Shown: positions 20,202 through 53,078 of the stretch, one piece after another | Position numbering within the stretch: the first letter of the stretch is position 1 | How the letters are laid out: each line of letters starts with the position of its first letter | Assembly (NCBI GenBank): GCA_003518055.1 | Contig: DOZJ01000003.1 | Coordinates: 2,046-66,045, forward strand | From: Candidatus Falkowbacteria bacterium | GTDB taxonomy: Bacteria > Patescibacteriota > Patescibacteriia > UBA11705 | DNA: 64,000 bases | Direction of reading: 5' to 3' | Program-made: the position numbers and the translations under genes | Notes under the pieces: generated by a model | The model's database searches: none | What the model was told of the DNA's origin: nothing | What the model saw: only the letters and a program-made list of their open reading frames with translations

Positions 20202-21050
20202 TTCTCGATGTGTTTGTTTAAGGATTATGAACCGATGATTGGGTTTATGTAATCACGTTTAATGAGCGTGATTTTTTGTCCTCTATTTTACTCCACTATT
20301 ATTTTACGACACATGATTATTTTAAAGTTAATTTTGAGTGGGAGATGAGTGAAGTTGTGATGAACTAATGAACTAATAATACAAAGAGGGGGAGAAGAGT
20401 ATATTCGAAATAAATAAATTTATCTTTGTTAAATTTAAAATTTAGAATTTTTTTGTGGATAACTCATTTAGACTTTTTATCATTTATTTTGTTGTTGAAT
20501 GTGGTTGTTCTGTACTGATATTAGATAAAATAAGGCTCAAAATCGCGCTATAACGCTTGATTCTCCGCGGTTGATGGTTTGTTACCATAAAATAATAATA
20601 AATATTGATGTATAGTTACGTAATAGCACGTATTTTATAGTTAATTTTGAACGCGACACCCCCCTGATATTTTGGCTAGAATTACAATAAAAATGACCCT
20701 CAAAATTGAGTTGTGTGAGGCGATTCATTTCTTTGTGACTAAGTACATGCGGATAGTATGGAATAAAGTGGAATATAACCATTTGATCGAAAATGAGGTG
20801 TAGTGTCGTAAAAGATATATTTGGCGACACTACATCCGATGTGATTTACTGGCAGCGCGGTGCTGGAATTAGTTGAGCCTCACCGAGTAAATTTGATGAG
20901 GTTGAATGCGGTGCATATGTTTCGTCCCCCATTCTTTCGATTTCAGCGGCGTCTAAAATTTACAGAATTGCAATAGATTATATTTATCAACAGTTCCCCG
21001 TGACGCTATTGGTTATAAGTGTTATAATATAGGTGAAAAAAAACAAAAAT

Positions 21051-23210
21051 ATGCCAAAAATAAATAGTTCAACTTTACGGAAAAGGAAAAAAATCGCAAT
21101 AGCGTCACTTCTATTGTTTTTTGTAGTTTTTGCGAGCGCAGCTTGGATTTTTTTACCCAATGATCCGGCTGAGGCCGCGGCTACAGATATTTTAATCAGT
21201 GAAGTAAGAGTTTCACCAGCTCAAGTTAGCCCAAATTTACAGCCAAATCCATCATACGAAACATGGACATCATCCAGTCAGCTAGAGCCATGGTATGATA
21301 TGAATGAAGATGAGGTCGCGGATGTTGATGAATATTGTGATTTTGACAGCAGTGGAACCAGAAATTCCTATGATAAGGAAATTTTTTCCGGAGGATCAAT
21401 TACGTTAACCCCGCTCGACAAAGATTGTGGTTCCGTCACTGAGGAAACGACAGATGTTTATCACGGAACGTCTGCGGTAAAGATTGTTACCGGTGATAAT
21501 GAGATTGCGACGGTTAAATTTGCTGACGGCTCAAGAACGGATATTGAAGCTGCCACACAATACACTGTGTCTTTTTATGCCAAAGGAAGTATTGGAAATG
21601 AAAGTATATATTTAAAACTTGATCATTTTGATGTCGGGTTTGTGGAACACACGTGGGATTTTGATCTGGAAACATTTGGTGTTAATGATACAATACCAGC
21701 ATCCAGCTCTATGGTTCGCGAATCTATTTTGACCACATCCTGGACGAGATACTCTTATACATTCACCACTGGTGATGAAGCTGGTTTTTTAGATGTTCAA
21801 ATTATATCAGGAGGAACAGGTATAATGTTTGACGGAAGCGCTGATCAATCAAATCAAACATTTTATATTGATGCTCTTCAGGTTGAGGCTGCAGCGTCGG
21901 CTACCAGTTTTATGTCGGCTGACGTGACAAGCGCGACTTTTTTTGAGCTATATAATCCAACAGCCGCGGCGATTGATCTGAATAATTACAATCTGGAATA
22001 TAAATTTGATGCCAATGAATGGGCTGATTTGGCGGTGGTCTCGGAGGCAACCAGTTTGGCGGCCGGTAAACATTATTTGATTAAGGCGTCCGGTGGTGAT
22101 AAAGTGATCGCAAATGAGGCGACATTTAATAGCGCGTATACCACCAACTCAATCACAATCAGCGGAATGGCGCTTCGTGTGTGTTCGAATTCAGCAGATT
22201 GCGCGTCGACCATCAAGGATACAGTTGGACTCGGTGATGCCACGGTTTACGAAGGTACGGCTATGAGCACCACCGGCTGGAATACAGCGAAAAGTTTTGA
22301 GCGTAAAGCCTACTCAACGTCAACGTCCGTGACCATGGCGTCTGGCGGTGCGGATGAGGTGGCCGGCAACGGCTATGATTCCGAGGTAAACAATAGCGAT
22401 TTTGTGTTATTGACTACCCCTGTCCCCCAAGCGATGGCAGCGACGGCGGAAATTTATGTGGCGCCCGTAACAGGCGGCAGCGCGTCAAGCCAGCGAGCGG
22501 CGCAGGAAAATTATGATATTTTATTAGGATTAGACTTGGATGATTCAGGGGCTGAAGACACGGGAGAGGTCCCTCCTGATGATACTACTATTACTGAGGA
22601 AGAATTATTGATTGAAGAAGATAATGTTGAACCGGATGATCAGACGGATGGATCTGATACTGAGGTGATTGAGGAATCGCCGGAAGAATCATTGATACCC
22701 GAATCACCGGTAGAAAAAAATATTATCATGGAACTTGAGGCCTTGAAGGATTTTATCGCAATTAACGGCGTATTACCAAATGCGGATGATTGGGCCGTAA
22801 TTCATTTTTTGAGCTATGATTCATCCGGATTTGAAGGTGTGTCTCTAAATGATCGAGTCGGGTTGATTGAAGACTATTATGATTTATACGGAAGAATGCC
22901 GAATGACGAGGCTGACTGGGAGGTTGTCTTGTCCATGTCAACCGGTGAGAAAACTGAAGTTAAGATTAATGAATTTGAAATCCGAGCGTTGAAAGAATTT
23001 ATCAGCGTCTATGGCCGGTTGGTTGATTTTAGCGTGCCGCAGGAAGAGCGATTTGTCCACATGGTCGCCTATCATCTGAGGCCGATGGAAAGAAATTTGG
23101 TTTTGGAGAATGCCGCGTTGATAAAATTTGTAACGACATACAATCAGATACCGGATACGCCACTTTTATGGTCAGTACTGAGAGCAATTGCTTATGCCGG
23201 CGTTGAATAA
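21051..23210 (+). CDS. Secreted/anchored lamin-tail-domain (LTD) protein with an inserted jelly-roll-like domain and a conserved C-terminal repeat module
   Basis: N-terminal signal/TM. LTD signature is split (DILISEV ... FFELYNPTAAAIDLNNYNL ... SFERK ... GNGYDSEVNNSDF). An acidic linker precedes a C-terminal ~175 aa homologous to the C-terminus of the 2317-aa neighbour. I prefer the ATG at 21051 because TATAAT sits at 21023-21028. The track start is GTG at 21033. Confidence 0.8.
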   Translation: MPKINSSTLRKRKKIAIASLLLFFVVFASAAWIFLPNDPAEAAATDILISEVRVSPAQVSPNLQPNPSYETWTSSSQLEPWYDMNEDEVADVDEYCDFDSSGTRNSYDKEIFSGGSITLTPLDKDCGSVTEETTDVYHGTSAVKIVTGDNEIATVKFADGSRTDIEAATQYTVSFYAKGSIGNESIYLKLDHFDVGFVEHTWDFDLETFGVNDTIPASSSMVRESILTTSWTRYSYTFTTGDEAGFLDVQIISGGTGIMFDGSADQSNQTFYIDALQVEAAASATSFMSADVTSATFFELYNPTAAAIDLNNYNLEYKFDANEWADLAVVSEATSLAAGKHYLIKASGGDKVIANEATFNSAYTTNSITISGMALRVCSNSADCASTIKDTVGLGDATVYEGTAMSTTGWNTAKSFERKAYSTSTSVTMASGGADEVAGNGYDSEVNNSDFVLLTTPVPQAMAATAEIYVAPVTGGSASSQRAAQENYDILLGLDLDDSGAEDTGEVPPDDTTITEEELLIEEDNVEPDDQTDGSDTEVIEESPEESLIPESPVEKNIIMELEALKDFIAINGVLPNADDWAVIHFLSYDSSGFEGVSLNDRVGLIEDYYDLYGRMPNDEADWEVVLSMSTGEKTEVKINEFEIRALKEFISVYGRLVDFSVPQEERFVHMVAYHLRPMERNLVLENAALIKFVTTYNQIPDTPLLWSVLRAIAYAGVE

Positions 23211-23693: not shown

Positions 23694-26600
23694 ATGATTC
23701 ATATGAAAAAAACAAACAGGCGATCGCGTTCGAATCATAATTTGTTGATCGCGTTTTTAATGGTTTTTATTCTTGGCACAACAGGGTATCTAACTTTGAT
23801 AAAACCTTTGGCGGTTAAAGCCGGGACATCGCCGCTTCTTATCAGTGAGGTGAAGTTTACGGGTGAAGTTGGCGGGAATTATGTTGAATTGTATAACCGC
23901 TCTGGCAGTGCCCTGTCAACGGAAGAAAATGTAGGCGTTCAATACAAGTTTCCCAGCGGCGAGTGGACTAATTTACACGTGGCATTCAGTAATGAATCAA
24001 TCCCAGCCAGTGGATTTGTTTTGTTTGGAACAGCGGGCGGTGACTTAGCTTTTGCCGATGAGGCCGCGTTTAATACCGCTATGGCCGCGAATAATAATTC
24101 CATTAACGGACTTAGTTTACGTTTGTGCGCTATATTAAGCAGTTGTGTCGATGGTAATTTGCTTGATGTCGTGGGTTTTGGTTCAAGCTCCACCACTGAA
24201 GGAACCGCAATCAGCCTCACAGATTGGGACCCGAGCAAAAGTTTTGAACGTAAGGCGATTTTTGATTCGACGGTTGGCGCTATGATTGCCGGTGGCGAGG
24301 ATGAAACGGCCGGAAATGGTTTTGATTCCGATGATAATAATTGGGATTTTGTGATGCAATCGACGGGCAATCCGCAAAATTTATCCAGCGCGGTTGAATC
24401 TTTGGATAACGCGGTATTTGAAGATGTTGTTCCCTTTATAGATCATGGACAGGTTTTCAGTTATCATGATAATGCGGATTTGTATTTGTTTGCCGCCATC
24501 TATGATGATAGTAATATTGCAACCACAGGAGCAAAAATATTTTATCGTGTCGGGACCAGCGGTGTTTTTACACAGGCTGACTCAACCAAAACCGTTGGGG
24601 CGTATGATCTGACAGGGTCTGCCTGGTATGCTTTTGTTATTCCCCAAGCAAGTTTGCAAAGCGCTGTTTCCGGGGGCGGAGTAGTCCAGTATTATCTTCA
24701 GGTGACCGATGGCGAAAATACAGCAACAATGCCGGATTACAATCCCAGCACCACGCCATTTAATATTGGCGTGACGGATGACTATGCCGGAGTTAAGTCA
24801 TTTTCCGGGGTGATAACCGATAGTCAGTTGAATTTTGTAAGGGCTTTGGTGCTTATAGAGAATTCAGGGTTTTATGCTGTTTCAAGCGCTGAGAATGGGG
24901 CTTACAGTTTCAGCAGTTTGCCAACTTCATATGAACCTGATGGGGCTTATCGGGTGATAATGGTGGCGCCAAATTATAGCTCTGCAATGGTAAGCGGCAT
25001 GAATGGATCTACGACTGTGAACGCGCAACTGCCGTTGTCATATGGGGATTTCGGTGGCGGAGACTTTGTTGGTCCTTATGTCAACTATACCGCTCCGAAC
25101 GCGGAAATGTTTGGAGCCCCGGTGGCGATATGTAATTTAAATACATCCCCGGAATCTCTGCCTGCCGGAGTAAATTTTTGTTCACCTATAATGGTCGGTT
25201 TTTCTGAAGCAATGAATAGCGGTACGGTTAATACGACAAATGTGAAACTGTACAATTTTACGACCAGCGCTTATGTTGACAATTTAGGGATAACAGCTAC
25301 AGCCCAAGATAATGAGTTTCAGGTTTTTTCCACCACTCCCCTGTCCGTCAATACGACATACGCTTTGATTTTAACCACGGATGTTCGAGATCAAGCGGGA
25401 AATGCTTTGGTGGGAAATCGAAGTGACGGTAGTTATGAAATTACTTTTACGACGGGAGGGGCGGCTTTTACCGGTGGTGGTGGTCAAACCTTCGGTTCCG
25501 GTCAGTTCCAGCCACCGTTTGTGCGAACGGTCAGTCCGAATTCAGGATCTTTTAATATCGCCATGAACGCCAATGTGTTGGTTGATTTTACGACGGCCGT
25601 AAACGTTGAAAGCGCCAACTTGGCTCGGGTTAATTTGGTCGATTTGGATTCGTCTGAGGTTGTGAGCTTGACTCGCACCTACAGCAACGATAAAACAAAA
25701 ATTATTTTAAATCCGAATTCAACTTTATCAGCTAATCAAGACTATGAAATTCGAGTTGCGGGCTCTTTTGAAAGTAGTGTCGGAGTGACGTTGGGAGATC
25801 CGCAAAACAGTCAGAATACGGATGACTACGTTTTCTTCCGCTCGTCGTTTACCACCGGTTCAACTTTAGATTCAACCGGACCGAGAGTTTTGGGCACGCT
25901 TCCGGCATCAGCTCAGACTGATGTGGCTGTGGGTTTGGGTTCGATTGAGATTGGCGTAAGCGAATCTCTTGATGCGGCGACAGTTAATACGTCAAATGTC
26001 ACCTTTAAACGAGGGAGCACGAATATTGCCGCCGATATCGAGTACGATGAAGCGTCTAAAACAATTCGATTGTTCCCTTCCAGCGCGTTGACGGCCAATG
26101 CCAGTCATACTGTAGCCGTCAAAACCGATGTGACTGATATCAATGGCAATGCTTTTAACAGTGATAATGACGGTACAAATGGTGAAGTTGATGATATTTA
26201 TACTTTTCAATTCACGACTTCCAGTACAATTGAAACAACCGCTCCGACGGTAACGAATGTCCGGTGCGATGATTATCAGTGTGTCGTGACATACAGTGAA
26301 GCGATGAATCGAGTGACAGTGACAGATACAACCGATTGGGTTGATAGTGTGGGAAAATGGGAAACCAGCGTCTTGAATAGGCTTAATTATAGTATTTCCG
26401 TTGATAAAGGGGCTGGATTGGCTACCGTGGACATAACAGAAGCGACTTTTAAATATGATGGTAATACCAATAGCGTAATTATATCCAATTTAAGGTTATA
26501 TGAAGATGTGGTTGATCTTAACAATCCGGTTCCATTAACTTTGTCGGTTTATAATGCGGCCGGCCCGGCTGATGGCGTGAGAGATATTGTCGGAAATGTC

Positions 26601-29600
26601 ATTGCCGCTTCAATCAGTATTAGCGGTACAGTTGAATCTAGCGCTCAAACCCAAGGTTTCATCGGGCCGGGCGCGACCGGGTTTGGCACGTCAGGCGTGA
26701 GCGATTTTGGAATGCATAGCGCGGCTACCATGGGCGAGAAACCAATTGGAGTTTTTCCGATGAATTCACTGGCCGGTGTAACCTCTCGCTATTTTGTTGA
26801 TTTGCCTGTGACCACGGTTATTCCGAACGGTGGAAAAATTGAATTAACATTCCCCAATGGATTTGATATTACAAATGCGGTGATTGATACCAACAGTCCG
26901 ATGAATAATGATATATCTCGCGGTTCTTCCACCATGACTTTGTCTTGCGTGGGAACTCAAGCAACGAGAACCATTACCTGTACGACTACCGGTGCTTCTG
27001 ATGCCAATGATTATTTATCTTTTGAATTAAAAACTATAATTAATAGTTCTATTCCCAAAGATTTCAACACTTCAGGTTATACGGTTGATGTTAAAACCAA
27101 GTCGGCTGATGGTTTGACTCTGTTGGAATCAATGACGACCATGCCGTTTTTCGTCACCGCGGCCGGATCCAATTCTATCACGGTCAAAGTTTATGCCGGC
27201 GGTCAGCTCGATGCCACCACCGGTACGGATGATATTGATGATGTAACCATGAATTTGTTTGTCGGTTCCCCCATGACCGGTCCCATGGATCAAACGATTA
27301 CTTTTACTAACGGCTATGCGACAACAACGATCAGTAATTTACCCGCCGGCGAATACTTTGTCTTTACCGAGCCATCAATGACAATTGGCGCCAACGAATA
27401 TGTCGGGGTGTCACCGGAGCAATTTTCACTAAATAACAACGTTACCAAGTCATTTTCGTTGAGTAAAATGGATAATTCAACGGCGGCGCCGCTGACAGTC
27501 AAGATTACCGGGGCCTTTGGCGAGACTGAAGATATTGATATTTTCGCCGGTAGTTCCAAGGGCTTTGTGGTCAAAACAATCAGTGATATCGGGACCGTAA
27601 CAAATCAGTCTTATACATTATATTTGCCTTACAACAGCGATTGGAGTATCGGTCTCGGGCCGGCAATGCCGAAAGGCGCAATCAGCGGTCAAGTCGCCAT
27701 GCCCGATTGGATGCCGCCGAAAAATAAAATGGTTCGAGTGACCGGCGTGGGCGAGACAGTCGCTTTGACCAATATGGAAACGCAGGCTGATGTTACCAGT
27801 GCTGGAGTCTCATTTACGGTGGCCTCTGCCGATTATCAAATTAACGGTTCGGTGGTTGACGGCAATGATCAAGGAATCGCTAACGCGGAGCTGTGGGCTT
27901 ACCAACCAATGGGTTTTGGCGGCAGCGGTAATAACACTCGAGCGACAACCGGCGGCAACTTCTCATTGAAGGTAGCGGAGTATGGAACGTACAAAGTAGG
28001 CGCCTTTTTACCTGGTATTCCCCAATCACCGGAATTAACATTGGAGGTAAAAGTTAACACCGGCGCCATTGATGGTAACGCCTCAGCGGATGTTTATCTA
28101 AACGGGACATTGATAACCGCTGGTAGTCCGTTTAAAATAAAATTAAGGAAAGCTGATTACACCATATCGGGTAAAGTGACGGATTCCAGCAACAATCCAA
28201 TGCAATACGCGCCGATTTGGGCCGAGGAATCCACCACGAAACAGACGGTTAACGCCATGACCGATTCCAGCGGAAATTATGTGCTTTATGTCGGTAATGG
28301 TACTTGGGTTGTCAGATCGGCGGTGCCTTTCGGTTCCAATATTTGCGGCAGTCTGACTAAAACGGTGACAATTTCCAGCGCATCCAAATCCGGTCAAAAT
28401 TTGCAACCATCATCAAGCACTTGTTACACTTTGAGCGGAACCGTGACTATTGGCGGATCGGTTGTTACCGGCGCCCCGGTGTTTATCGATGAATGGTCAG
28501 GGACGCTGGCGAGCGGTAATCCAATCGGGGTTTTTAGAGACTCGCGAACAGATTCCGCAGGACAATATTCGACACGAATTTCGAACGGCACATATCGCGT
28601 TGGGACTTGGTCAGAGGATTATGGCGAGCGGGCTATTTTAGTCACGGTTAATGGCCAGGATTCAACGGCAAATCATATCACTGTAGAGGTGGCTGATTTA
28701 AAAACATTGACCGTTAATTTTACCGGTGGCGCCAGCGACATGACTGGTTTCATGGAGGTGCGGAACGCCACAAGCACTGAACGCCGCGGTCGTCCGATCA
28801 ATGATTTATCGAATGCTGAAATTATTCAAGTTAGCGCCGGGACTTATAATGTATTTGTTCATATTGACGGTGTGGGTGACTTTAGCCAAAGCAGCGTTGA
28901 TTTAACCGCTAACGCCGTTATTACATTCAATGTGTCATCAGTGACTCGATTTGGCATTACAGGCACGGTCGAGGATGTTGATGGCAATCCGATCGAAAGC
29001 GCTTGGGTTTGGGTTCATGATCCAAATAGCAATTATAGAACAGGAGCAGCGACCAACTCGTCTGGCGCTTATACTTTGAGTGTAAAGGAAGGTTCAGGGA
29101 TGAAAATCGGTGTTGATAAACCGAATTATGTCTCCCCTGCCCCCAGAACATTAAACGTCACTGAAGCGGCTACGATAGATTTTACCGACGCTGAGAATGC
29201 CGCTTTGACCGCGACGAATTATGTGGTTTCTGGTACGGTGACGGGAACGAATTTGACTGAGGGTTTTGTGTGGGCGGAAACCGCTACGGGTGGTTGGTCA
29301 GGTAGTCCGATTGATTTGGACGGAACCTTTTCATTGCCGGTGACAAACGGAACGTGGACACTCAAAGGTATTGCTCCGCTTCACGCGCAAACGACCTATA
29401 GTGGTTCGATAACGATTAATAATGACAGTGTAACCGGTTTAAGCTTTCCTTTGACGGTTGATGTCACGAAGACAGTCAAAACGGCCATAAATTCGATTAC
29501 TCCTTCTGTCGGTGGTGTCATTCAAGACGATACGGTAGGGGCAAAAGTCGTAGTACCACCGAATGCTTTAGGCAGCGGATCGACGTCAGGAAATATGACA

Positions 29601-30647
29601 ATGCAAAAATCATATACGGCTCCGGCTACTGGCTTATACGCGCCGTTATCAGGTGAGTCAGTCAATATATCAGTTACCGATAACAATGGTCAGCAGATTA
29701 CCAATTTAAACGATGACGTGGAGTTGACTCTAGATTATTTGACTACAAGTTTACCGAGCGGAATTTCCGAAGGCGATTTGATTCCGGCTTATTGGGATAC
29801 TACAACAAATCAATGGATCCCGCTCAGCGGAGTGCAGAATTCGTCAGACAACTCATTTACAGCTCAAACCAATCACTTTACCATTTTTGGTGTGGTTTAT
29901 TCCCCGCTGTCAGTAACGACAGCATCTGGCAGCAGTCGATCCAGCCAGGAGGCGTCACAAGAGCTTGTTGATTCGATAACCGGTGATGGCTCTGGTAGTT
30001 CGACATCGATTCCGGCGACTGAAGAAACGACAGAGCCGGAAACCGCAGAACCGGAGTTAATACCCGATGAGTCAGTAACGGAAACACCTGAGACGTCCGT
30101 GGAAGCTGAAGAAGAGATGGTGAAAACATATACCCCGGATTTACCGGCAGAGCGTGATTTGGATAATGAACGAGACGCCATAAGTCGATATATCAGTTTG
30201 GAGAAAGAATTACCAACTGGTGATGACTGGAAGGTTGTCCAATTCATCAGCTACGGAAGTACGTCTGTGACTGAAGTTTTGACGACTCGGGAGCGTTCTG
30301 GTTTAGTATCTGATTATAAGGATTTGTACGGCCATTTACCGGTGACCGAGACTGATTGGAAGGATATAGATTTGATTGCTCGCGGTGAACAACCGACCCG
30401 GATTTTGACGCTTGAGGCATCAGCTATCAAGGAATTCGTAATGATTTATGGTCGATTGGTCAATTTTCAGACAGCAGCAGATGAGGATTTTATTCATATG
30501 GTGGCTTATCGCTATCGAGTGGAACAACGCGATTTGGCCAGGGAAAATACGGCTTTGGGCATATTTTCTAAGGCTTATGGTCATCTGCCCAATTCAACCC
30601 ACTTTTGGTCGGTATTGAGAGCTATATCCTATGCTAACGTGGAATAA
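23694..30647 (+). CDS. Giant surface protein (2317 aa): LTD, Ig-like modules, carboxypeptidase-regulatory-like beta-sandwich repeats and a conserved C-terminal repeat module
   Basis: N-terminal TM/signal. LTD motifs are present (LLISEVKFTG...NYVELYNRSG...SFERK...GNGFDSDDNNWDF). Four modules carry the pattern xVxFSEAMxxxTVNxxNV. Five or more repeats look like Y(T/V)(I/L)SG(K/T)VTD...G(N/A)Y(V/T)L.V..G.Y. An acidic Thr/Glu/Pro linker precedes a C-terminal domain shared with 21051..23210. Confidence 0.85.
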   Translation: MIHMKKTNRRSRSNHNLLIAFLMVFILGTTGYLTLIKPLAVKAGTSPLLISEVKFTGEVGGNYVELYNRSGSALSTEENVGVQYKFPSGEWTNLHVAFSNESIPASGFVLFGTAGGDLAFADEAAFNTAMAANNNSINGLSLRLCAILSSCVDGNLLDVVGFGSSSTTEGTAISLTDWDPSKSFERKAIFDSTVGAMIAGGEDETAGNGFDSDDNNWDFVMQSTGNPQNLSSAVESLDNAVFEDVVPFIDHGQVFSYHDNADLYLFAAIYDDSNIATTGAKIFYRVGTSGVFTQADSTKTVGAYDLTGSAWYAFVIPQASLQSAVSGGGVVQYYLQVTDGENTATMPDYNPSTTPFNIGVTDDYAGVKSFSGVITDSQLNFVRALVLIENSGFYAVSSAENGAYSFSSLPTSYEPDGAYRVIMVAPNYSSAMVSGMNGSTTVNAQLPLSYGDFGGGDFVGPYVNYTAPNAEMFGAPVAICNLNTSPESLPAGVNFCSPIMVGFSEAMNSGTVNTTNVKLYNFTTSAYVDNLGITATAQDNEFQVFSTTPLSVNTTYALILTTDVRDQAGNALVGNRSDGSYEITFTTGGAAFTGGGGQTFGSGQFQPPFVRTVSPNSGSFNIAMNANVLVDFTTAVNVESANLARVNLVDLDSSEVVSLTRTYSNDKTKIILNPNSTLSANQDYEIRVAGSFESSVGVTLGDPQNSQNTDDYVFFRSSFTTGSTLDSTGPRVLGTLPASAQTDVAVGLGSIEIGVSESLDAATVNTSNVTFKRGSTNIAADIEYDEASKTIRLFPSSALTANASHTVAVKTDVTDINGNAFNSDNDGTNGEVDDIYTFQFTTSSTIETTAPTVTNVRCDDYQCVVTYSEAMNRVTVTDTTDWVDSVGKWETSVLNRLNYSISVDKGAGLATVDITEATFKYDGNTNSVIISNLRLYEDVVDLNNPVPLTLSVYNAAGPADGVRDIVGNVIAASISISGTVESSAQTQGFIGPGATGFGTSGVSDFGMHSAATMGEKPIGVFPMNSLAGVTSRYFVDLPVTTVIPNGGKIELTFPNGFDITNAVIDTNSPMNNDISRGSSTMTLSCVGTQATRTITCTTTGASDANDYLSFELKTIINSSIPKDFNTSGYTVDVKTKSADGLTLLESMTTMPFFVTAAGSNSITVKVYAGGQLDATTGTDDIDDVTMNLFVGSPMTGPMDQTITFTNGYATTTISNLPAGEYFVFTEPSMTIGANEYVGVSPEQFSLNNNVTKSFSLSKMDNSTAAPLTVKITGAFGETEDIDIFAGSSKGFVVKTISDIGTVTNQSYTLYLPYNSDWSIGLGPAMPKGAISGQVAMPDWMPPKNKMVRVTGVGETVALTNMETQADVTSAGVSFTVASADYQINGSVVDGNDQGIANAELWAYQPMGFGGSGNNTRATTGGNFSLKVAEYGTYKVGAFLPGIPQSPELTLEVKVNTGAIDGNASADVYLNGTLITAGSPFKIKLRKADYTISGKVTDSSNNPMQYAPIWAEESTTKQTVNAMTDSSGNYVLYVGNGTWVVRSAVPFGSNICGSLTKTVTISSASKSGQNLQPSSSTCYTLSGTVTIGGSVVTGAPVFIDEWSGTLASGNPIGVFRDSRTDSAGQYSTRISNGTYRVGTWSEDYGERAILVTVNGQDSTANHITVEVADLKTLTVNFTGGASDMTGFMEVRNATSTERRGRPINDLSNAEIIQVSAGTYNVFVHIDGVGDFSQSSVDLTANAVITFNVSSVTRFGITGTVEDVDGNPIESAWVWVHDPNSNYRTGAATNSSGAYTLSVKEGSGMKIGVDKPNYVSPAPRTLNVTEAATIDFTDAENAALTATNYVVSGTVTGTNLTEGFVWAETATGGWSGSPIDLDGTFSLPVTNGTWTLKGIAPLHAQTTYSGSITINNDSVTGLSFPLTVDVTKTVKTAINSITPSVGGVIQDDTVGAKVVVPPNALGSGSTSGNMTMQKSYTAPATGLYAPLSGESVNISVTDNNGQQITNLNDDVELTLDYLTTSLPSGISEGDLIPAYWDTTTNQWIPLSGVQNSSDNSFTAQTNHFTIFGVVYSPLSVTTASGSSRSSQEASQELVDSITGDGSGSSTSIPATEETTEPETAEPELIPDESVTETPETSVEAEEEMVKTYTPDLPAERDLDNERDAISRYISLEKELPTGDDWKVVQFISYGSTSVTEVLTTRERSGLVSDYKDLYGHLPVTETDWKDIDLIARGEQPTRILTLEASAIKEFVMIYGRLVNFQTAADEDFIHMVAYRYRVEQRDLARENTALGIFSKAYGHLPNSTHFWSVLRAISYANVE

Positions 30648-30752
30648 TTAGATAAGAAAAAAAGGGCTCTTGGCTCTCTTTTTTCTTTGTGGTATACTTT
30701 TTTTAGCTAAGTGAGTCGTGATAATCAGTTTATTAAATTTTGTGATGTAAGT

Positions 30753-30986
30753 ATGTCAATTTTAGAAAAAATATTTTCGAGTAAAAAATTGTTTCAGTAT
30801 TTTGTTTTGGTGGTGGTGACCTTGTTTTTGGTCAATTTGATTTTAACGGTAATATTATTGACAAAAGTTACAACGTTAAGAGGCGCCGTTGATACTTACC
30901 AATCAAAGGAATCGCAAATGTTAAATCAAATTTACGGCCGAACGTGGACGATTCAGGGGGCTTTGGAAACGAAGAACAACAATTAG
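30753..30986 (+). CDS. Small single-TM protein (77 aa)
   Basis: ORF with one strong TM helix (YFVLVVVTLFLVNLILTVILL). The start is uncertain (track start 30711). Confidence 0.4.
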   Translation: MSILEKIFSSKKLFQYFVLVVVTLFLVNLILTVILLTKVTTLRGAVDTYQSKESQMLNQIYGRTWTIQGALETKNNN

Positions 30987-31001: not shown

Positions 31002-31400
31002 TCACGAGCGAAAATATTGGCTGAAGTACGGATCTTTTTTTATTTTGATGATGTTTTTATCGACTTGATGATAAAACGCCGGATAATGCTGTCTGACAAT
31101 CATGCGGCCGCGGTATTTTTGATAATATGGCGGTTTTTGGATGTGGGCAATTTCATGAGCGAGGGTTCTGAGTAAAGTATTAATGCTTTTGGGTTTATTG
31201 GTCTTTGGTGTCAGGACATCAAGCGCGATAGTCTTTTTTTGGAAATTGATATACCCCAAAATTAATCTCTTGCCGGTTGCTGATTGACGGCGGCTGATGA
31301 TTCGTAGTTTGTATTCATCATAGCCAAAAAGTTTTCTCACGATTTGGTGAAAAATCAACTCGACAAATTCAAGGTAGCGGTCATTTTTGTAGGCTGGCAT
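31002..31400 (-). CDS. Putative zinc metalloprotease-like protein (HExxH; SprT/DUF45-like)
   Basis: 132 aa with an LAHEIAHI motif. Its C-terminal half is duplicated as a fragment at 23305-23513. Confidence 0.55.
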   Translation of the reverse strand: MPAYKNDRYLEFVELIFHQIVRKLFGYDEYKLRIISRRQSATGKRLILGYINFQKKTIALDVLTPKTNKPKSINTLLRTLAHEIAHIQKPPYYQKYRGRMIVRQHYPAFYHQVDKNIIKIKKDPYFSQYFRS

Positions 31401-31532: not shown

Positions 31533-32756
31533 TTATGGAAGATACAGCAGCGGATCGACTGGGATACCATTGAGACGGACTTCAAAGTGAAGGTGCGGTC
31601 CGGTGGTCAGGTTGCCGGCGCCGGGTGTCCCAGGGGCGCCGCCGCTTAGGCCAATAACTTCACCTTTGGATACATATTCATCCACAGAGACATAAAGGGC
31701 GCTGACGTGGCCGTAGACGGTCGAGAGGCCATTGGCATGGATTAGAGCAATATAGCTGTACCCCATTCCGGCATCTCGGGCTTTGAGTACATAACCATCG
31801 GCAGAGGCTCTGATCGGAGTGGATTGGGCTGCTCGGATATCGATGGCCGGATGTTCAAAAATATGACGAAAGGGATAAGATTTGTCGTGAAAATAGGCGG
31901 TTACCGTATTTTTTGTTACTGGCCAAATTAGAGTGCTGTCTGTCAGGGCCGGTTGTTCGGTGTCAGTGGCGGCGTCAATTTGTTCTCGTTTAAGTTTTTC
32001 GAGATTATAAATTTCGTTATTGGCCGCTTCTTGTTCTTGTTTGGCCTGCCAGAAAAGATCGTAAAATTTTTGTTCTGACTCTTTGGTGTCAAACAGCAGA
32101 TCATCTTTATAATTGACTTCGCCCGCGAATTCCGCTTGCTGAATTTTTAATTCTTGTTTTAAATCGGTTAATTGCGTGTGTTTTTTGTCCATGTCGGATT
32201 TCTGGGTTTCAAGCTCCCCTTTTAGCCGTTTGATGCTATCAAGGGATTTTTGAAGGTTGTTGGATAATATTTTGGTGTTTTCAAGATGAATGAAAAAATC
32301 CGAGAGTGAATTGTTTAGAACAAAAATTTCTAGCGCGCCGGTGTCGTTTTGATAATGAAGGTGTTTCAGCGTTTCGCCTAACTCCCCTTTTTTCTTGTCG
32401 ATTTCATTCTCATGAGTCAAAATCTGCAATTCTGTTTGCCGGATTTCCAACTCGTTTTTTTTGACTTCTTGCTCGGTGGTCTCAATTTCGAGCTTGGTTT
32501 GGGCGATTTTATTGGTCAGAACGTCAATTTGATTTTGCAGGGATACGGCTTCTTCTTGTTTCTGCTGGATGTTTTTTTTGTAGATAGCTTGTTGCTTTTC
32601 CAATTCTTGAATTTTTTCTTGCGTAGATTTGATTTGGCTGTCGAGGTCATCAACGGTTTGAGCTATGATTGGGAGTCTCGGCAAAAGAAAAAATATACTT
32701 ATAACCGATAAGCCGCCAATCCATTTGATAGATTGTTTGAAATAGGATTTCATCAC
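31533..32756 (-). CDS. M23 family metallopeptidase with a long N-terminal coiled coil (EnvC-like)
   Basis: Signal/TM, about 250 aa of heptad-rich coiled coil, then a C-terminal M23 domain with HxxxD-type and GPHLHFEV motifs. Confidence 0.85.
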   Translation of the reverse strand: MMKSYFKQSIKWIGGLSVISIFFLLPRLPIIAQTVDDLDSQIKSTQEKIQELEKQQAIYKKNIQQKQEEAVSLQNQIDVLTNKIAQTKLEIETTEQEVKKNELEIRQTELQILTHENEIDKKKGELGETLKHLHYQNDTGALEIFVLNNSLSDFFIHLENTKILSNNLQKSLDSIKRLKGELETQKSDMDKKHTQLTDLKQELKIQQAEFAGEVNYKDDLLFDTKESEQKFYDLFWQAKQEQEAANNEIYNLEKLKREQIDAATDTEQPALTDSTLIWPVTKNTVTAYFHDKSYPFRHIFEHPAIDIRAAQSTPIRASADGYVLKARDAGMGYSYIALIHANGLSTVYGHVSALYVSVDEYVSKGEVIGLSGGAPGTPGAGNLTTGPHLHFEVRLNGIPVDPLLYLP

Positions 32757-35324: not shown

Positions 35325-35682
35325 GTTAAGCATGAACTTTGATATAACCATAACTACCAGACTACGCTGAAGCTACGTCTGGCACAGCGAAAGTTTAGCA
35401 GCAGCAAGAAGGCAGCAACTATTATTGAATTTGAGTTTGTGTCAACCTGAACTTGTTTCAGGTTCTACAAAATCAGATTCAATGATGGTTGTGAGATGTC
35501 TCCAACCTGTCCGGTGTAAATGGTCAAGACCAAAGAACTTCTTAAGCTTCACTCTGGTCCCCACATATCAAAACCGGGACCTATGAGCCGATTAGCGGCT
35601 GACAAAAGTGAAGTCGAAGATCAGCGGTCAAGACCAACCAAATCGTTTTTGGGGCACAGCCCCGCTTCATGGAGGAATCCAG

Positions 35683-36768
35683 ATGACCGAGCAGAGCACC
35701 CGCATCTCCACCCTCGTCGACTACGTCAACAACCACGGCACGTCGATCCGGCCCAACGTCATGGTCGAGTCCGATCTCGTCACCGGGCGCCCCTTCCCCG
35801 CGCGTTTCGCGCGGGTGCTGGTGGCGACCCAGCAGCTGTTCAACAACATCGACGTGAAGATGCTGCAGGAGCAGATTTTCAGGCTCAACGGCGAGCAGCG
35901 CGACGCCGGCAAGCCGATGCTCGACGGCAGCCACATCACGCTCAGCGAGGCGCTCGCGAACGCCGCGGCGGTCATCAAGTACCGCGACGCCATCGACCCG
36001 CTCCTGATCAACCGCGACGCGCGACTCACCGGCTTCCAGGTGTCCGAGCTGTCGCTCGACCCGACGGAGCTGGAGAAGCACCTCGCGGCAGGCGCCGGCA
36101 CGATCGACATGACCCGTGTCGCGGCCTGGTCCAAGAAGCAGAGCCTCTACGAGGCCGCGCTCGCGGCCCGCGCGGCGATCTTCGACGACCTGCGCAGCCG
36201 CGACGTCACCCCCGAGGAGCCCAACGGCTGGAGCCTGGCCCAGTGCCAGACGTCCGACTTCTGGGCGGCCTACGAGGAGGCGATCAAGGCCTTCGCGGTC
36301 GAGGTCGGCTTCGAGTGGGACGGCACGCCGACCACGCCGACTCCGCCGGTCTACCCCGTCACGGTCGTCCGCGTGTTCCACCGGGACGACATGTCGACCG
36401 GCTTCCGGTACATCCCCATGGTGGCGGACGGTCGGCACAAGGCGGCCGTGCAGATCCTCTGGGAGCAGCACGTCGAGTGGTCCCAGGAGCGCCAGAAGCC
36501 GCCGACGTTCTACCGCCGGTTCGTGTCGGAGGTCTGCGTCCCCCTGAACCTGCTGCAGGACATGCTCCGCAGCGAGGGCGTCAAGGACGACCGGCCGACG
36601 GTCGAGGCGAAGGTCTCGAGCCTCGCCGCGTCCCTGTCCGCCATTAGGGACAACCGGAACGCCGAGTACGAGGGCGGCCGGCGCAACCGCGACGAGGACA
36701 ACGACCGCCGCGGCAGCCGGGGCAAGCGCGGCAACACCCGCCAGAACCACCCCTACTCCCGCGGCTGA
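35683..36768 (+). CDS. Foreign-composition hypothetical protein (361 aa) with an Arg/Gly/Asn/Asp-rich C-terminal tail
   Basis: ATG at 35683 lies 6 nt after GGAGGA. 58 of the first 60 codons end in G or C, which marks this as the true frame. The overlapping ORFs in other frames are Arg/Ala/Pro/Gly-rich shadows. It has an internal Pro/Thr linker (GTPTTPTPPVYP) and the tail NRNAEYEGGRRNRDEDNDRRGSRGKRGNTRQNHPYSRG. I recognised no catalytic motif. Confidence 0.8.
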   Translation: MTEQSTRISTLVDYVNNHGTSIRPNVMVESDLVTGRPFPARFARVLVATQQLFNNIDVKMLQEQIFRLNGEQRDAGKPMLDGSHITLSEALANAAAVIKYRDAIDPLLINRDARLTGFQVSELSLDPTELEKHLAAGAGTIDMTRVAAWSKKQSLYEAALAARAAIFDDLRSRDVTPEEPNGWSLAQCQTSDFWAAYEEAIKAFAVEVGFEWDGTPTTPTPPVYPVTVVRVFHRDDMSTGFRYIPMVADGRHKAAVQILWEQHVEWSQERQKPPTFYRRFVSEVCVPLNLLQDMLRSEGVKDDRPTVEAKVSSLAASLSAIRDNRNAEYEGGRRNRDEDNDRRGSRGKRGNTRQNHPYSRG

Positions 36769-36842
36769 CCGCAACCAACCCACCTCCCGATCTTTCCGTC
36801 TCGAATCTGAGGCATCACAAGCGAAAAACTCTACGAACATAA

Positions 36843-50984: not shown

Positions 50985-53078
50985 ATGAGCAACGAACACA
51001 AATATTTTTGGGAAGAAGCAGTGGCCATTTTACGACGATTGCGGATTCGCACCAAACAAAAATATTTTGAACTTTGCAACATTGATAATCGATTTTCTCG
51101 AACCCCGGGATCTTTTTATCGTGACTGCTGGGTGGAAAAGGGTAAATGGCCCGGTTTCTTGGGATTCAAACCGTTTCGGACTGAGAAAACCAGTTACGTC
51201 ACGTGGGAAGAAGCAGCTGTCGCGGCCAGAAAATTGGGGTTTGCTACTGCGGATGATTATAAATTAGACTATGAAACAGATCCCAAATTGCACTCAAGCC
51301 CGCAAAAACTTTATAGATATGTATGGAAGAAAAATGGTGGCTGGCCCGGCTTTTTGGGTACAATCGGCAAAAAGAAACGAAAAAAATTTTACGCTACTTG
51401 GGCTGAAGCGTCAGCCGCTGCTCGGCGGTTAAAATTCAAAACCATTCGAGAGTATGTTAACGGTCGGAAACAAGATCCACGACTTCACTCTAAACCAAAC
51501 AAACTATATGCGGCTGAGTGGAAATCGAATGGCGGTTGGAAAGGATTTCTTGGAAATTCAGGCATAAGAAAACGACAGGATATTTATCCTACGTGGAATC
51601 TCGCTTCAGCTGCAGCCAAAAAACTGGGAATTAAACGAAGTGAAGATTATAGTAAAGTGTATAAAAAAGACCCCAAGCTGCCGGGCAACCCCAATCTCGC
51701 TTATGAGGATGTTTGGCAGAAGAATGGACGCTGGGCCGGATTCTTGGGGACAAGGACAAAACCTAATCCGGATGAAAAATACGCGACTTGGGAAGAAGCA
51801 TCGGCCGCTGCCAAAAAAATTGGGTTTATTTCGACTGATGATTATAACCAGCGATTTGCTGAAACTGATCCGAAATTGCCGGGAAAACCAAGTGACAAGT
51901 ATCGGAGTGTTTGGAAAAAAAACGGCCGTTGGATCGGTTACCTTGGTTTAAAAATGGTTTCACCCATCCGCGGTCATAAATATGTTACTTGGCATGAAGC
52001 ATCTAAGGCCGCTCAAAGATTAGGCATCAAAAATGGAATAGAATACAAACGTCGATACAAAAGTGATCCAAAGCTGCCGCTGAAGCCGGCCCAATTGTAT
52101 AAGATTGAATGGAAGAAGCGCGGCAGCATGGCTGGTTTTCTGGCACGAATATTTTCATATGTCAGATGGGAAGAAGCATCGGCCGCCGCTCGAAAATTGA
52201 ATATTCGGACCATCAAAGAATATCAGAAAAAACATTGTTTGGATCCACGATTGCCAAGCAATCCGGCCCATACTTACAAATCTGTCTGGGTGAAAAAAGG
52301 TCTTTGGCTGGGATTCCTCGGCAAAACTAAGGTGGAAAAATACGCTACTTGGGATGAGGCGGTGAAGGCGGTTAGACGATTAAGAATTACGTCATGCCGC
52401 GATTATCAAAATCGATACCGTTGTGACCCGAAGTTGCCGGTCAGACCATATATAAATTACAGAAACGTTTGGGTTTTGCTCGGTAAGTGGAGTGGTTTTA
52501 TCGGTCGGAAATCTCATTTTTATTCGACTTGGCAGGAAGCGTCAAAGGCCGCGATTGCTTTGGGCATCAAGACTCAAAAAGAGTACAAACAGAATTATTG
52601 GGATGATCCAAAATTACCAAGCACTCCAGATGTGGTTTATCAATCGTTGTGGAAAGTTAATGGCGGTTATTGGGGGTTTTTGGGTAAAACAAAGAAATAT
52701 CAATCTTGGTCAGAAGCGGCAAAAGCGGCGCGCAGTCTAAAAATCAGGAATAATCAAGAGTACAAAATAAAATACAAGTTGAATCCGAAATTACCGGCCT
52801 GTCCGGATCATTATTATAAAAATGATTGGAAAAGAAATGGCTGCTGGAACGGATTCCTCGGATTGACGCCAAAAAAATATTATGACACATGGATTGAAGC
52901 GTCGACTGCGACGATAACATTGGGAATTAAATATCAGCAAGAATATCGTCAACGATACAAACAAGATCCCCGGCTTCCGCCTAGCCCGGATTTAGTTTAC
53001 AAGGATGTCTGGGTTGATAACGGGCGCTGGCTGGGATTTCTCGGCCGGACAAATAGAATATTGAAAGCTCGCAAATAA
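50985..53078 (+). CDS. Tandem-repeat protein: 11 copies of a ~58-aa W-E-E-A...DPKLP...Y...W...G-W-x-G-F-L-G unit
   Basis: Eleven units each end in (W/Y)xGFLG-like sequence. Unit consensus: Y(A/V)TWEEAS(A/K)AA(R/K)KLGIK...EY...Y..DPKLP..P...Y...W..NG.W.GFLG. SD GGAGGAAGC precedes the ATG. Confidence 0.75.
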   Translation: MSNEHKYFWEEAVAILRRLRIRTKQKYFELCNIDNRFSRTPGSFYRDCWVEKGKWPGFLGFKPFRTEKTSYVTWEEAAVAARKLGFATADDYKLDYETDPKLHSSPQKLYRYVWKKNGGWPGFLGTIGKKKRKKFYATWAEASAAARRLKFKTIREYVNGRKQDPRLHSKPNKLYAAEWKSNGGWKGFLGNSGIRKRQDIYPTWNLASAAAKKLGIKRSEDYSKVYKKDPKLPGNPNLAYEDVWQKNGRWAGFLGTRTKPNPDEKYATWEEASAAAKKIGFISTDDYNQRFAETDPKLPGKPSDKYRSVWKKNGRWIGYLGLKMVSPIRGHKYVTWHEASKAAQRLGIKNGIEYKRRYKSDPKLPLKPAQLYKIEWKKRGSMAGFLARIFSYVRWEEASAAARKLNIRTIKEYQKKHCLDPRLPSNPAHTYKSVWVKKGLWLGFLGKTKVEKYATWDEAVKAVRRLRITSCRDYQNRYRCDPKLPVRPYINYRNVWVLLGKWSGFIGRKSHFYSTWQEASKAAIALGIKTQKEYKQNYWDDPKLPSTPDVVYQSLWKVNGGYWGFLGKTKKYQSWSEAAKAARSLKIRNNQEYKIKYKLNPKLPACPDHYYKNDWKRNGCWNGFLGLTPKKYYDTWIEASTATITLGIKYQQEYRQRYKQDPRLPPSPDLVYKDVWVDNGRWLGFLGRTNRILKARK

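What the first reader, a model, noticed from the sequence alone, without database searches (positions are those of the whole stretch)
30090..30644. Uncharacterised C-terminal four-repeat module shared by both surface proteins (candidate envelope-anchoring domain)
The last ~175-185 aa of both LTD proteins (22680-23207 and 30090-30644) align well, and both end in FWSVLRAISYANVE / LWSVLRAIAYAGVE. Each contains four degenerate ~40-aa repeats with the pattern (E/A)xxA(L/I)xxFxxxYGxLPxxxxxWxV(L/V)xx(I/M)(A/S)Y. Examples are ELEALKDFIAINGVLPNADDWAVIHFLSY, VGLIEDYYDLYGRMPNDEADWEVVLSMS, IRALKEFISVYGRLVDFSVPQEERFVHMVAY and NAALIKFVTTYNQIPDTPLLWSVLRAIAY. An acidic Glu/Thr/Pro-rich linker precedes the module. 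I do not recognise it as SLH, LysM, a sortase signal or CWB2. A conserved C-terminal module on two otherwise different giant extracellular proteins suggests a lineage-specific cell-envelope attachment or secretion/sorting domain.
Basis: partly seen in the sequence, partly recalled or inferred. Interest (0 to 1): 0.55.

Follow-up and report, generated by a model that had tools for sequence, protein, structure and literature searches.

The report
Uncharacterised C-terminal surface-anchor domain of Patescibacteria
Both neighbouring giant secreted proteins end in the same four-repeat, all-helical domain, which belongs to a large unnamed family found at the very C-terminus of hundreds of different secreted proteins of ultra-small (Patescibacteria/CPR) bacteria and most likely holds them on the cell envelope.

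Summary
ORFs 21033-23210 (725 aa) and 23694-30647 (2317 aa) end in homologous ~165-aa modules (41% identity, E 3e-50). Each module consists of four homologous ~41-aa helix-loop-helix repeats and follows an acidic Glu/Thr/Pro-rich linker.

- **Spread:** a profile search found 1183 cluster representatives (977 at E<=1e-10). All named sources are Patescibacteria, and the nearest genomes are Candidatus Falkowbacteria.
- **Position:** the module is almost always the last thing in the protein, with a fixed 4-5-residue tail that usually ends in Arg or Lys.
- **Carriers:** it sits behind signal peptides and more than 20 kinds of extracellular domains.
- **Exceptions:** in the four cases where something follows the module, it is PG_binding_1 (three) or SH3_3 (one).

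My best reading (about 0.5) is a lineage-specific, non-covalent envelope-retention domain, analogous to SLH or CWB2 but unrelated to them. The ligand is unknown and nothing was tested biochemically. Two facts remain unexplained: some signal-peptide-less standalone copies exist, and the charge varies (window copies pI 4.5-5, family median 9.4).

The parts
30150..30644 (+). C-terminal four-repeat module of the 2317-aa protein (aa 2153-2317); it ends at the last codon before the stop at 30645-30647
   Evidence: Family HMM match to profile positions 1-164, E 2e-61. AlphaFold2 model pLDDT 96.8, pTM 0.88, eight long helices forming four hairpins.
30150..30281 (+). Repeat 1 (module residues 1-44; helices 4-18 and 24-35)
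   Evidence: Repeat-unit HMM hit at aa 2155-2192; AF2 secondary structure; hhalign R1 vs R3 97.9%.
30282..30407 (+). Repeat 2 (module residues 45-86; helices 46-60 and 67-77); contains the invariant R49, P64 and W70
   Evidence: Repeat-unit HMM hit at aa 2199-2236; invariant columns of alignment A2.
30408..30533 (+). Repeat 3 (module residues 87-128; helices 86-100 and 109-120); its loop is longer and it lacks the Pro/Trp of the other repeats (YGRLVNF...DFIHMVAY)
   Evidence: Repeat-unit HMM hit at aa 2238-2280; hhalign R3 vs R4 98.0%.
30534..30644 (+). Repeat 4 (module residues 129-165; helices 129-143 and 150-161), followed by the fixed-length C-terminal tail (WSVLRAISY-ANVE)
   Evidence: Repeat-unit HMM hit at aa 2280-2314. 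The tail after the invariant Tyr is 4-5 aa in 310 of 320 family members.
29931..30149 (+). Acidic Ser/Thr/Pro/Glu-rich linker preceding the module in the 2317-aa protein
   Evidence: 26% Asp+Glu, 41% Thr+Pro+Ser, 3% Lys+Arg. Across the family the 50 aa upstream of the module are Glu-enriched, 11.4% against 4.0%.
23694..30647 (+). Carrier gene 2: 2317-aa secreted protein. Order of parts: N-terminal hydrophobic signal, LTD-like domain, Big_5 x3, CarboxypepD_reg x5, linker, module
   Evidence: ORF list and translation; Pfam; LTD-like region 42% identical to that of the 725-aa protein.
22716..23207 (+). C-terminal four-repeat module of the 725-aa protein (aa 562-725); repeat boundaries approximately 22707-22841, 22842-22970, 22971-23096 and 23097-23207
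   Evidence: Family HMM E 9e-57 and four repeat-unit hits; 41% identity to the other module.
22527..22706 (+). Acidic linker preceding the module in the 725-aa protein
   Evidence: 42% Asp+Glu and no Lys or Arg over 60 aa.
21033..23210 (+). Carrier gene 1: 725-aa secreted protein. Order of parts: signal peptide (hydrophobic core aa 21-41, AEA-A site), LTD interrupted by a CBM_4_9 / GTA-spike-fibre-like jelly-roll, linker, module

Best explanation
The last ~165 residues of both proteins form one autonomously folding, all-alpha domain built from four homologous ~41-aa helix-loop-helix repeats (consensus l..E..Ai..F..iYgrlP....DW..V..IAYG). The domain belongs to a large, unnamed family that appears confined to Patescibacteria (CPR).

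Proposed mechanism, with each step marked as shown or inferred:
1. The carrier is exported by Sec through an N-terminal signal peptide that looks cleavable. The signal peptides are shown; cleavage is inferred.
2. The carrier then has no membrane anchor, lipobox or LPXTG signal (shown by the sequence).
3. The C-terminal module binds non-covalently to a component of the cell's own envelope, which could be peptidoglycan, a wall-associated polymer or the S-layer base (inferred; ligand unknown).
4. The acidic Glu/Thr/Pro-rich linker spans the wall, and the variable passenger domains (LTD, Ig-like, fn3, CarboxypepD_reg, proteases and others) are displayed outward (inferred).

Functionally this resembles SLH, CWB2, LysM or choline-binding C-terminal repeat modules of Gram-positive bacteria, but the module is not homologous to any of them.
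For: **A real, widespread family**
- 1183 representatives at E<=1e-3 and 977 at E<=1e-10 among 50%-identity clusters.
- Source names are only 'hypothetical protein' from Patescibacteria, Parcubacteria, Falkowbacteria or Kuenenbacteria.
- The nearest genomes are Ca. Falkowbacteria.

**Position**
- The module ends within 5 residues of the C-terminus in 147 of the 150 best hits.
- It ends at the last residue in 86 of 88 ORFs from an independent metagenome sample.
- The tail after the invariant Tyr is 4-5 aa in 310 of 320 proteins.

**Carriers are exported and diverse**
- 56 of 68 complete carrier ORFs have an N-terminal hydrophobic run, and many show AxA-type sites.
- Among 130 carriers the passengers include fn3, several Ig-like families, LTD, cohesin, PKD, CarboxypepD_reg, subtilase, GH18 and polysaccharide deacetylase.

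**Linkers**
- Glu/Thr/Pro-rich segments precede the module.

**Exceptions point to the wall**
- In the four cases where the module is not terminal, it is followed by PG_binding_1 (P0056, P0096, the L038 ORF) or SH3_3 (P0052). This places this end of the protein at the wall.

**A wall exists to bind**
- The organism has peptidoglycan genes: PBP transpeptidase, alanine racemase, FtsQ and an M23 peptidase.

**Repeat number varies, as in wall-binding repeat modules**
- Variants have two-repeat units, 4+2 repeats, or 6-10 repeats.

**The fold is confident**
- pLDDT 96.8, four helical hairpins.
Against: - No binding experiment or ligand exists, so the role rests on architecture and analogy.
- No classical peptidoglycan hydrolase (amidase, lysozyme, NlpC/P60, M23) was seen among 130 carriers. 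True wall-binding modules are usually also found on autolysins.
- Net charge is not conserved: family median pI 9.4, against 5.0 and 4.5 for the two window copies. This argues against one simple electrostatic ligand.
- Conserved standalone module genes without a signal peptide exist, with in-frame stops just upstream (L006 10001-10462, L009 1482-1985). An extracellular anchor does not explain them.
- The near-invariant tail length and terminal Arg/Lys hint that the free C-terminus itself matters. Simple non-covalent binding does not require that.
- AFDB-wide fold search and HHpred were not available, so a remote relationship to a known family is not excluded.
Confidence: 0.5

Rival explanations
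1. Protein-protein docking or lattice module. The domain binds another protein, such as an S-layer subunit, a cohesin-like receptor or itself. Carriers would then be retained or assembled on a proteinaceous surface layer rather than on the wall polymer, on the dockerin/cohesin or S-layer-associated-protein principle.
For: - Many different passengers share one C-terminal helical repeat module, as in cellulosomal dockerins.
- Six of 130 carriers also contain a cohesin domain, and these tend to have 6-10 repeats.
- Peptidoglycan hydrolases are absent among the carriers.
- Variable charge is easier to reconcile with co-evolving protein partners.
- Standalone soluble copies could act as caps or competitors.
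Against: - No conserved partner gene was found next to module genes. The shared neighbours in one subfamily are best explained by synteny.
- There is no Pfam dockerin signal.
- Cohesin co-occurs in only a small minority of carriers.
- The rare C-terminal additions are wall-binding domains, not protein-binding ones.
Confidence: 0.2
2. Host-adhesion tip. The carriers stay attached through an uncleaved N-terminal signal anchor, and the C-terminal module is the distal end. It would bind the cell wall of the host bacterium on which the episymbiont lives.
For: - Cultivated Patescibacteria are obligate episymbionts, as stated in the abstract of PMC11623550.
- The N-terminal hydrophobic segments could act as signal anchors; this is my inference.
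- Variable charge could track different host walls.
- Association with PG_binding_1 or SH3_3 is also compatible with binding a foreign wall.
Against: - Many carriers have short h-regions followed by clear AxA motifs, typical of cleaved signal peptides.
- The strongly conserved module sequence (W..vRAIAYSGA.R across hundreds of clusters) contrasts with the rapid diversification expected of host-recognition tips.
- It is the passenger domains that are hypervariable and adhesin-like.
- Some carriers are only signal peptide, linker and module (for example P0188).
Confidence: 0.12
3. Sorting or processing signal. The folded module, with its fixed C-terminal tail, is recognised by a dedicated machine. 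That machine could be a transpeptidase that links the C-terminus covalently to the wall, a protease, or a secretion or assembly factor.
For: - The placement is extremely strict: the tail is 5 aa in 281 and 4 aa in 29 of 320 proteins, and the last residue is Arg or Lys in 301 of 320.
- Nothing follows the module in more than 97% of proteins.
Against: - It has none of the tripartite motif, hydrophobic helix and basic tail typical of sortase or exosortase signals (sequence).
- No NCBIfam sorting-domain model matches.
- No conserved enzyme gene lies nearby.
- The two window copies end in Glu, not Arg or Lys, so the terminal residue is not essential.
- A 165-aa, four-repeat domain with variable repeat number is unlike any known sorting signal.
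- Single-membrane cells need no second export step.
Confidence: 0.08

Closest known systems
SLH domains (PF00395) and CWB2 repeats (PF04122) of Gram-positive S-layer and surface proteins
   Same: A terminal module made of a few tandem repeats folds into one unit. It is shared by many otherwise unrelated secreted proteins of one lineage and is used for non-covalent retention on the wall. These roles for SLH and CWB2 come from established knowledge, not from tests here.
   Different: - No sequence match.
- Four repeats rather than three.
- The all-alpha hairpin fold has no significant PDB neighbour.
- The ligand is unknown.
- The distribution is confined to Patescibacteria.
PMBR, pseudomurein-binding repeat (PF09373) of PeiP/PeiW and methanogen surface proteins
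   Same: It is the only Pfam family giving any signal. The shared motif is a short 'helix + (Y/F)xxxxG(R)xP', and PMBR is also a tandem repeat implicated in wall binding.
   Different: - Scores are below threshold: 20.0 bits against a 24.9-bit cut-off, covering only 13 of 33 profile positions, in 3 of 33 family members.
- hhalign of the repeat profile against the four PeiP repeats gives 7% probability.
- In the PeiP repeats the G-R-E-P-R motif is followed by a short hydrophobic, strand-like segment (IVYV); that this is a strand is my reading of the sequence. Here a second helix follows.
PG_binding_1 (PF01471) and Cpl-7/CW_7 repeats: small helical peptidoglycan-binding modules
   Same: Both are all-helical, often repeated and often C-terminal. 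PG_binding_1 is physically fused behind this module in three family members.
   Different: - hhalign against PG_binding_1 gives 1% probability.
- Co-occurrence in one protein suggests a complementary function, not the same one.
Dockerin modules of cellulosomal proteins
   Same: A duplicated helical C-terminal module is appended to many different extracellular proteins, and some family members carry cohesin domains.
   Different: - No dockerin Pfam match.
- No EF-hand-type calcium-binding loops are evident; I judged this by reading the sequence and did not test it.
- About 165 aa, against roughly 70 aa for a dockerin (figure from established knowledge).

Membership tests
PMBR (PF09373) | Match to the Pfam model at or above the gathering score (24.9 bits) | tested here: not met
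   The best score in the window is 20.0 bits (E 6.7e-4), on repeat 2 of the 725-aa protein only. The 2317-aa copy gives nothing, and only 3 of 33 family members give weak hits.
PMBR (PF09373) | Repeat architecture: one helix, then the G-R-E-P-R motif, then a short strand; about 33 aa per unit | tested here: not met
   hhalign of the repeat-unit profile against the four PeiP repeats gives 7% probability over 11 columns. The AF2 model has helix-loop-helix units of about 41 aa and no strands.
PG_binding_1 (PF01471) | Sequence or profile similarity to the three-helix peptidoglycan-binding domain | tested here: not met
   No Pfam hit falls on the module. hhalign against three PG_binding_1 domains taken from family members gives 1% probability.
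SLH / LysM / CWB2 / choline-binding / GW-SH3 / WxL / dockerin | Match to the corresponding Pfam model | tested here: not met
   None of these families appears at E<=1 for the two window proteins, at E<=0.1 for 33 modules, or at E<=10 for single repeats.
Sortase (LPXTG) or exosortase-type C-terminal sorting signals | Short motif, then a hydrophobic transmembrane helix, then a basic tail at the C-terminus | tested here: not met
   The translations end in an amphipathic helix plus ANVE or AGVE. They have no LPXTG and no hydrophobic stretch. No NCBIfam sorting-domain model matches.
Non-covalent cell-envelope anchoring repeat modules (a functional class, not a homology family) | Carried by Sec-exported proteins that lack another anchor | tested here: met
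   N-terminal hydrophobic signal segments occur in 56 of 68 complete carriers. Neither window protein has a second transmembrane segment, and AxA-type sites are visible.
Non-covalent cell-envelope anchoring repeat modules (a functional class, not a homology family) | Terminal tandem-repeat module shared by many unrelated passenger domains within a lineage | tested here: met
Non-covalent cell-envelope anchoring repeat modules (a functional class, not a homology family) | Demonstrated binding to peptidoglycan, a secondary wall polymer or the S-layer | not testable with these tools
   This needs binding assays with purified module and envelope fractions.
Any structurally characterised fold | Significant global structural similarity to a solved structure | tested here: not met

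The most novel reading that the evidence does not exclude
The module is a new-fold envelope-attachment device whose strictly terminal, fixed-length tail (typically SGAxR-COOH) is part of the mechanism. For example, a dedicated Patescibacteria-specific enzyme or receptor could recognise the tail, or the free C-terminus could be covalently coupled to the wall. That would be a surface-protein sorting pathway distinct from sortase, exosortase and the known non-covalent anchors.
Probability: 0.1. Interest if true: 0.85.

Novelty: new variant of a known kind. Interest (0 to 1): 0.6.

Why it matters
Patescibacteria (CPR) make up a large share of bacterial diversity, live attached to other microbes, and encode many giant surface proteins. 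How they keep such proteins on a wall-bounded, single-membrane cell is essentially unknown.

A single conserved C-terminal domain is present on hundreds of different exported proteins and matches no Pfam or NCBIfam model and no solved structure. That makes it a concrete, clonable handle with several uses:
- It can be tested for wall, S-layer or host binding.
- It can serve as a bioinformatic marker to list the displayed surface proteome of each genome.
- It can serve as an affinity or labelling reagent for uncultivated cells.

If it proves to be the main anchoring system of these lineages, it would join SLH, CWB2 and LysM as a new class of cell-surface display module. It also merits a domain-family entry.

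Tried and rejected
- **Word-index homologue search with the single module** found only one fragment (P0001). The family appeared only with the exhaustive profile search.
- **PMBR relationship:** rejected after fetching PeiP from phage psiM2 and running hhalign.
- **PG_binding_1 relationship:** rejected.
- **PDB sequence search:** nothing, with either the single sequence or the profile.
- **PDB fold search:** only generic helical-bundle hits. The AFDB library was unavailable.
- **Phage or viral origin, or use as an endolysin wall-binding domain:** no copies in IMG/VR or in GenBank phages.
- **Conserved partner or receptor gene:** neighbourhoods of three long contigs and 80 metagenome loci show no general partner. 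One subfamily shares sigma-70, DUF5667, a giant secreted protein and HU as neighbours, which I attribute to synteny. A small transmembrane ORF lies downstream in the window and its closest relatives but is not general.
- **Genome scan with the 33-sequence alignment** failed because no stretch was conserved enough. A closer alignment found only two Falkowbacteria genomes.
- **Recent duplication or gene conversion between the two window copies:** rejected, since the DNA is only about half identical.
- **Rfam on the window:** nothing.
- **Literature searches**, including for the sequence motif, found no description of the domain.
Full report

All quoted peptide strings are present. The four example repeats all come from the 725-aa protein.

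The two tails align over 175 residues at 41% identity (BLASTP E 3e-50). At DNA level they are only about half identical and Tandem Repeats Finder reports no array, so the duplication is old.

Four lines of evidence support four internal repeats:
- Shuffle tests give z-scores of 5-8 for many non-orthologous repeat pairs.
- A repeat-unit HMM finds exactly four units in each protein and nothing else in the six-frame translation of the window.
- Profile-profile comparison of the four repeat blocks across 33 family members gives 90-98% probability for all six pairs, and 98.6% for the first half against the second half.
- The predicted structure has four helical hairpins.

The acidic linkers are real. 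Region 22527-22706 is 42% Asp+Glu. Region 29931-30149 is 26% Asp+Glu and 41% Thr+Pro+Ser.

The two proteins are also paralogous at their N-terminal ends. They share a signal segment and an LTD-like domain at 42% identity (E 6e-40). Their middles differ: a CBM_4_9 / GTA-spike-like jelly-roll in one, and Big_5 plus CarboxypepD_reg arrays in the other.

**2. What is it?**

A profile of the module was searched against 1.84 billion cluster representatives. It found 1183 proteins at E<=1e-3 and 977 at E<=1e-10, ranging from 107 to 3508 aa among the 150 best listed.

The only names the sources give are 'hypothetical protein' or names taken from other domains in the protein. The organisms are Patescibacteria group, Parcubacteria, Falkowbacteria and Kuenenbacteria. 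Two hits are labelled Latescibacteria and Nanoarchaeia and are probably mis-binned. The nearest species-representative genomes are two Candidatus Falkowbacteria (66% and 47% identity). A syntenic metagenome fragment also exists (L001).

The window encodes a PBP transpeptidase, alanine racemase, FtsQ and an M23 peptidase, so the organism makes peptidoglycan.

No curated family covers the module:
- Pfam-A and NCBIfam give nothing above threshold for the window copies, for 33 diverse modules, or for 8 members of the commonest subfamily.
- The precomputed Pfam field is empty for nearly all hits.

**3. Structure**

With a 33-sequence alignment, AlphaFold2 gives a very confident model: pLDDT 96.8, pTM 0.88, and 160 of 165 residues at 90 or above. 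It has eight long helices arranged as four hairpins with a period of about 42 residues.

**4. Family anatomy**

*Position.* The module ends within five residues of the C-terminus in 147 of the 150 best hits. It ends at the very last residue in 86 of 88 ORFs from an independent set of 80 metagenome loci.

*Tail.* After the invariant Tyr of the last helix, the tail is five residues in 281 and four in 29 of 320 proteins. It ends in Arg or Lys in 301 of them, typically as SGAKR or SGATR. The window copies end in ANVE and AGVE, a rare variant.

*Carriers.* They are exported: 56 of 68 complete ORFs have an N-terminal hydrophobic run, often followed by AxA-type sites. Passenger domains in 130 scanned carriers include:
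- fn3, several Ig-like families, LTD, cohesin, PKD, HYR and CarboxypepD_reg;
- beta-helix and LRR domains;
- subtilase, GH18, polysaccharide deacetylase, ice-binding-like and prenyltransferase-toroid domains.

*Linkers.* Glu/Thr/Pro-rich segments commonly precede the module.

*Repeat number.* It varies. There are two-repeat units separated by Pro/Ala linkers (P0052), 4+2 arrangements, and 6-10 repeats behind a cohesin domain.

*Exceptions.* In the four cases where the module is not terminal, it is followed by PG_binding_1 (P0056, P0096, the L038 ORF) or by SH3_3 (P0052).

**5. How it most likely works**

*Shown:*
- The module is a conserved, autonomously folding, strictly C-terminal helical repeat domain.
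- It sits on Sec-exported proteins with many different extracellular passengers.
- The organisms have a wall and a single membrane.

*Inferred:*
- After signal-peptide cleavage the carriers have no other anchor.
- The module therefore retains them by binding non-covalently to an envelope component.
- The linker spans the wall.

This is the logic of SLH, CWB2, LysM and choline-binding modules. I give it about 0.5.

*Rivals:*
- Docking to a protein partner or S-layer (0.2). Cohesin co-occurrence, the absence of autolysin carriers and variable charge favour it. The lack of any conserved partner gene counts against it.
- A host-wall adhesion tip (0.12). Cleavable-looking signal peptides count against it, as does the module being far more conserved than its passengers.
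- A sorting or processing signal (0.08). The rigid tail favours it. Against it are the lack of a transmembrane segment or motif, the lack of an associated enzyme, and the Glu-terminal window copies.

**6. What does not fit**

- Module charge is not conserved. The family median pI is 9.4 (net +5), but the window copies have pI 5.0 and 4.5.
- A small set of conserved, intact, standalone module genes lack a signal peptide and cannot be extended upstream (L006 10001-10462, L009 1482-1985). At least one other short copy is a frameshifted fragment (L005). Many short database entries are probably contig-edge fragments.
- No peptidoglycan hydrolase was seen among the carriers.

**7. Comparison with known families**

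The only Pfam signal is PMBR, the pseudomurein-binding repeat. It scores 20.0 bits against a cut-off of 24.9, covers 13 of 33 profile positions, and appears in 3 of 33 members.

I fetched PeiP from phage psiM2, confirmed its four PMBR repeats, and compared profiles. hhalign gives 7% probability over 11 columns. The resemblance is confined to a 'helix + YGRxP' turn. In PeiP this turn is followed by a strand-like hydrophobic segment, whereas here a second helix follows.

PG_binding_1 is unrelated (1%). SLH, LysM, CWB2, choline-binding, GW, WxL, dockerin and sortase-type signals are all absent. The module is therefore functionally comparable to known anchoring repeat modules but is not a member of any of them.

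**8. Novelty and verdict**

I found no description of the domain in the paper library, including by searching for its sequence motif. No copies occur in phage collections.

I rate it a new variant of a known kind: a previously unnamed, apparently Patescibacteria-specific domain family that most likely does a known job, surface retention, with an unrelated fold.

Interest is 0.6. It is a well-defined, abundant and testable handle on how CPR bacteria display their surface proteins. Its function remains inferred, and an existing entry in resources I could not query (InterPro beyond Pfam and NCBIfam, AFDB clusters) cannot be excluded.

Noticed in passing
window 21189-21215 and 21927-22451 (725-aa protein): The LTD of the 725-aa protein appears to be split. 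Its first strand (ILISEVRVS) follows the signal peptide directly. The rest of the domain resumes about 240 residues later (FFELYN...). In between lies an inserted CBM_4_9-like / GTA 'head spike fibre'-like jelly-roll (NF048003, E 1.4e-11). In the 2317-aa paralogue the same LTD is contiguous.
   Followed up: partly
window 50985-53078 (+): A 697-aa protein consists largely of ten Pfam INT_rpt ('integrase repeat unit', PF14882) repeats, E 3.7e-133. It has no other detected domain.
   Followed up: no
window 20202-21032: An unusually long (about 830 nt) AT-rich gap without a long ORF lies upstream of the 725-aa surface-protein gene. No Rfam family matches anywhere in the window.
   Followed up: no
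L006 10001-10462; L009 1482-1985; L008 454-954: Some Parcubacteria-type genomes have conserved standalone module-only genes (153-167 aa). They lack a signal peptide, use a TTG start and have in-frame stops just upstream. They lie between an HTH-protein gene and an HU gene. In L006 and related loci a sigma-70/DUF5667 pair and a giant secreted protein are nearby; these recur in about 10-20 of 80 loci.
   Followed up: partly
window 30711-30986 (+), 31002-31400 (-), 31533-32756 (-); also L001 and L002: Three genes lie downstream of the giant gene: a small single-pass membrane ORF, a 132-aa ORF with an HExxH motif (LAHEIAH), and an M23 peptidase. The order is conserved in the two closest relatives, though the small ORF is not conserved downstream of module genes in general.
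   Followed up: partly
P0052, P0026, P0033, P0041, P0004-P0008 (family members, not in the window): The family has architectural variants. Some have autonomous two-repeat units separated by Pro/Ala linkers. Some have 4+2 repeat arrangements. Some have an N-terminal cohesin domain followed by 6-10 repeats. The basic folding unit may therefore be a pair of hairpins.
   Followed up: partly
window about 29880-29930 (…NHFTIFGVVYSP) and carriers P0029, P0031, P0035: A short motif (H-x-[ST]-x-F-[AG]-[VL]-x-G) recurs at the end of the last beta-rich domain, just before the linker, in several otherwise different carriers.
   Followed up: no
window 35520-36840: Long ORFs overlap on both strands here: 375 and 386 aa on the + strand, 419 aa on the - strand. 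The minus-strand ORF has no Pfam match, and the coding strand was not resolved.
   Followed up: no
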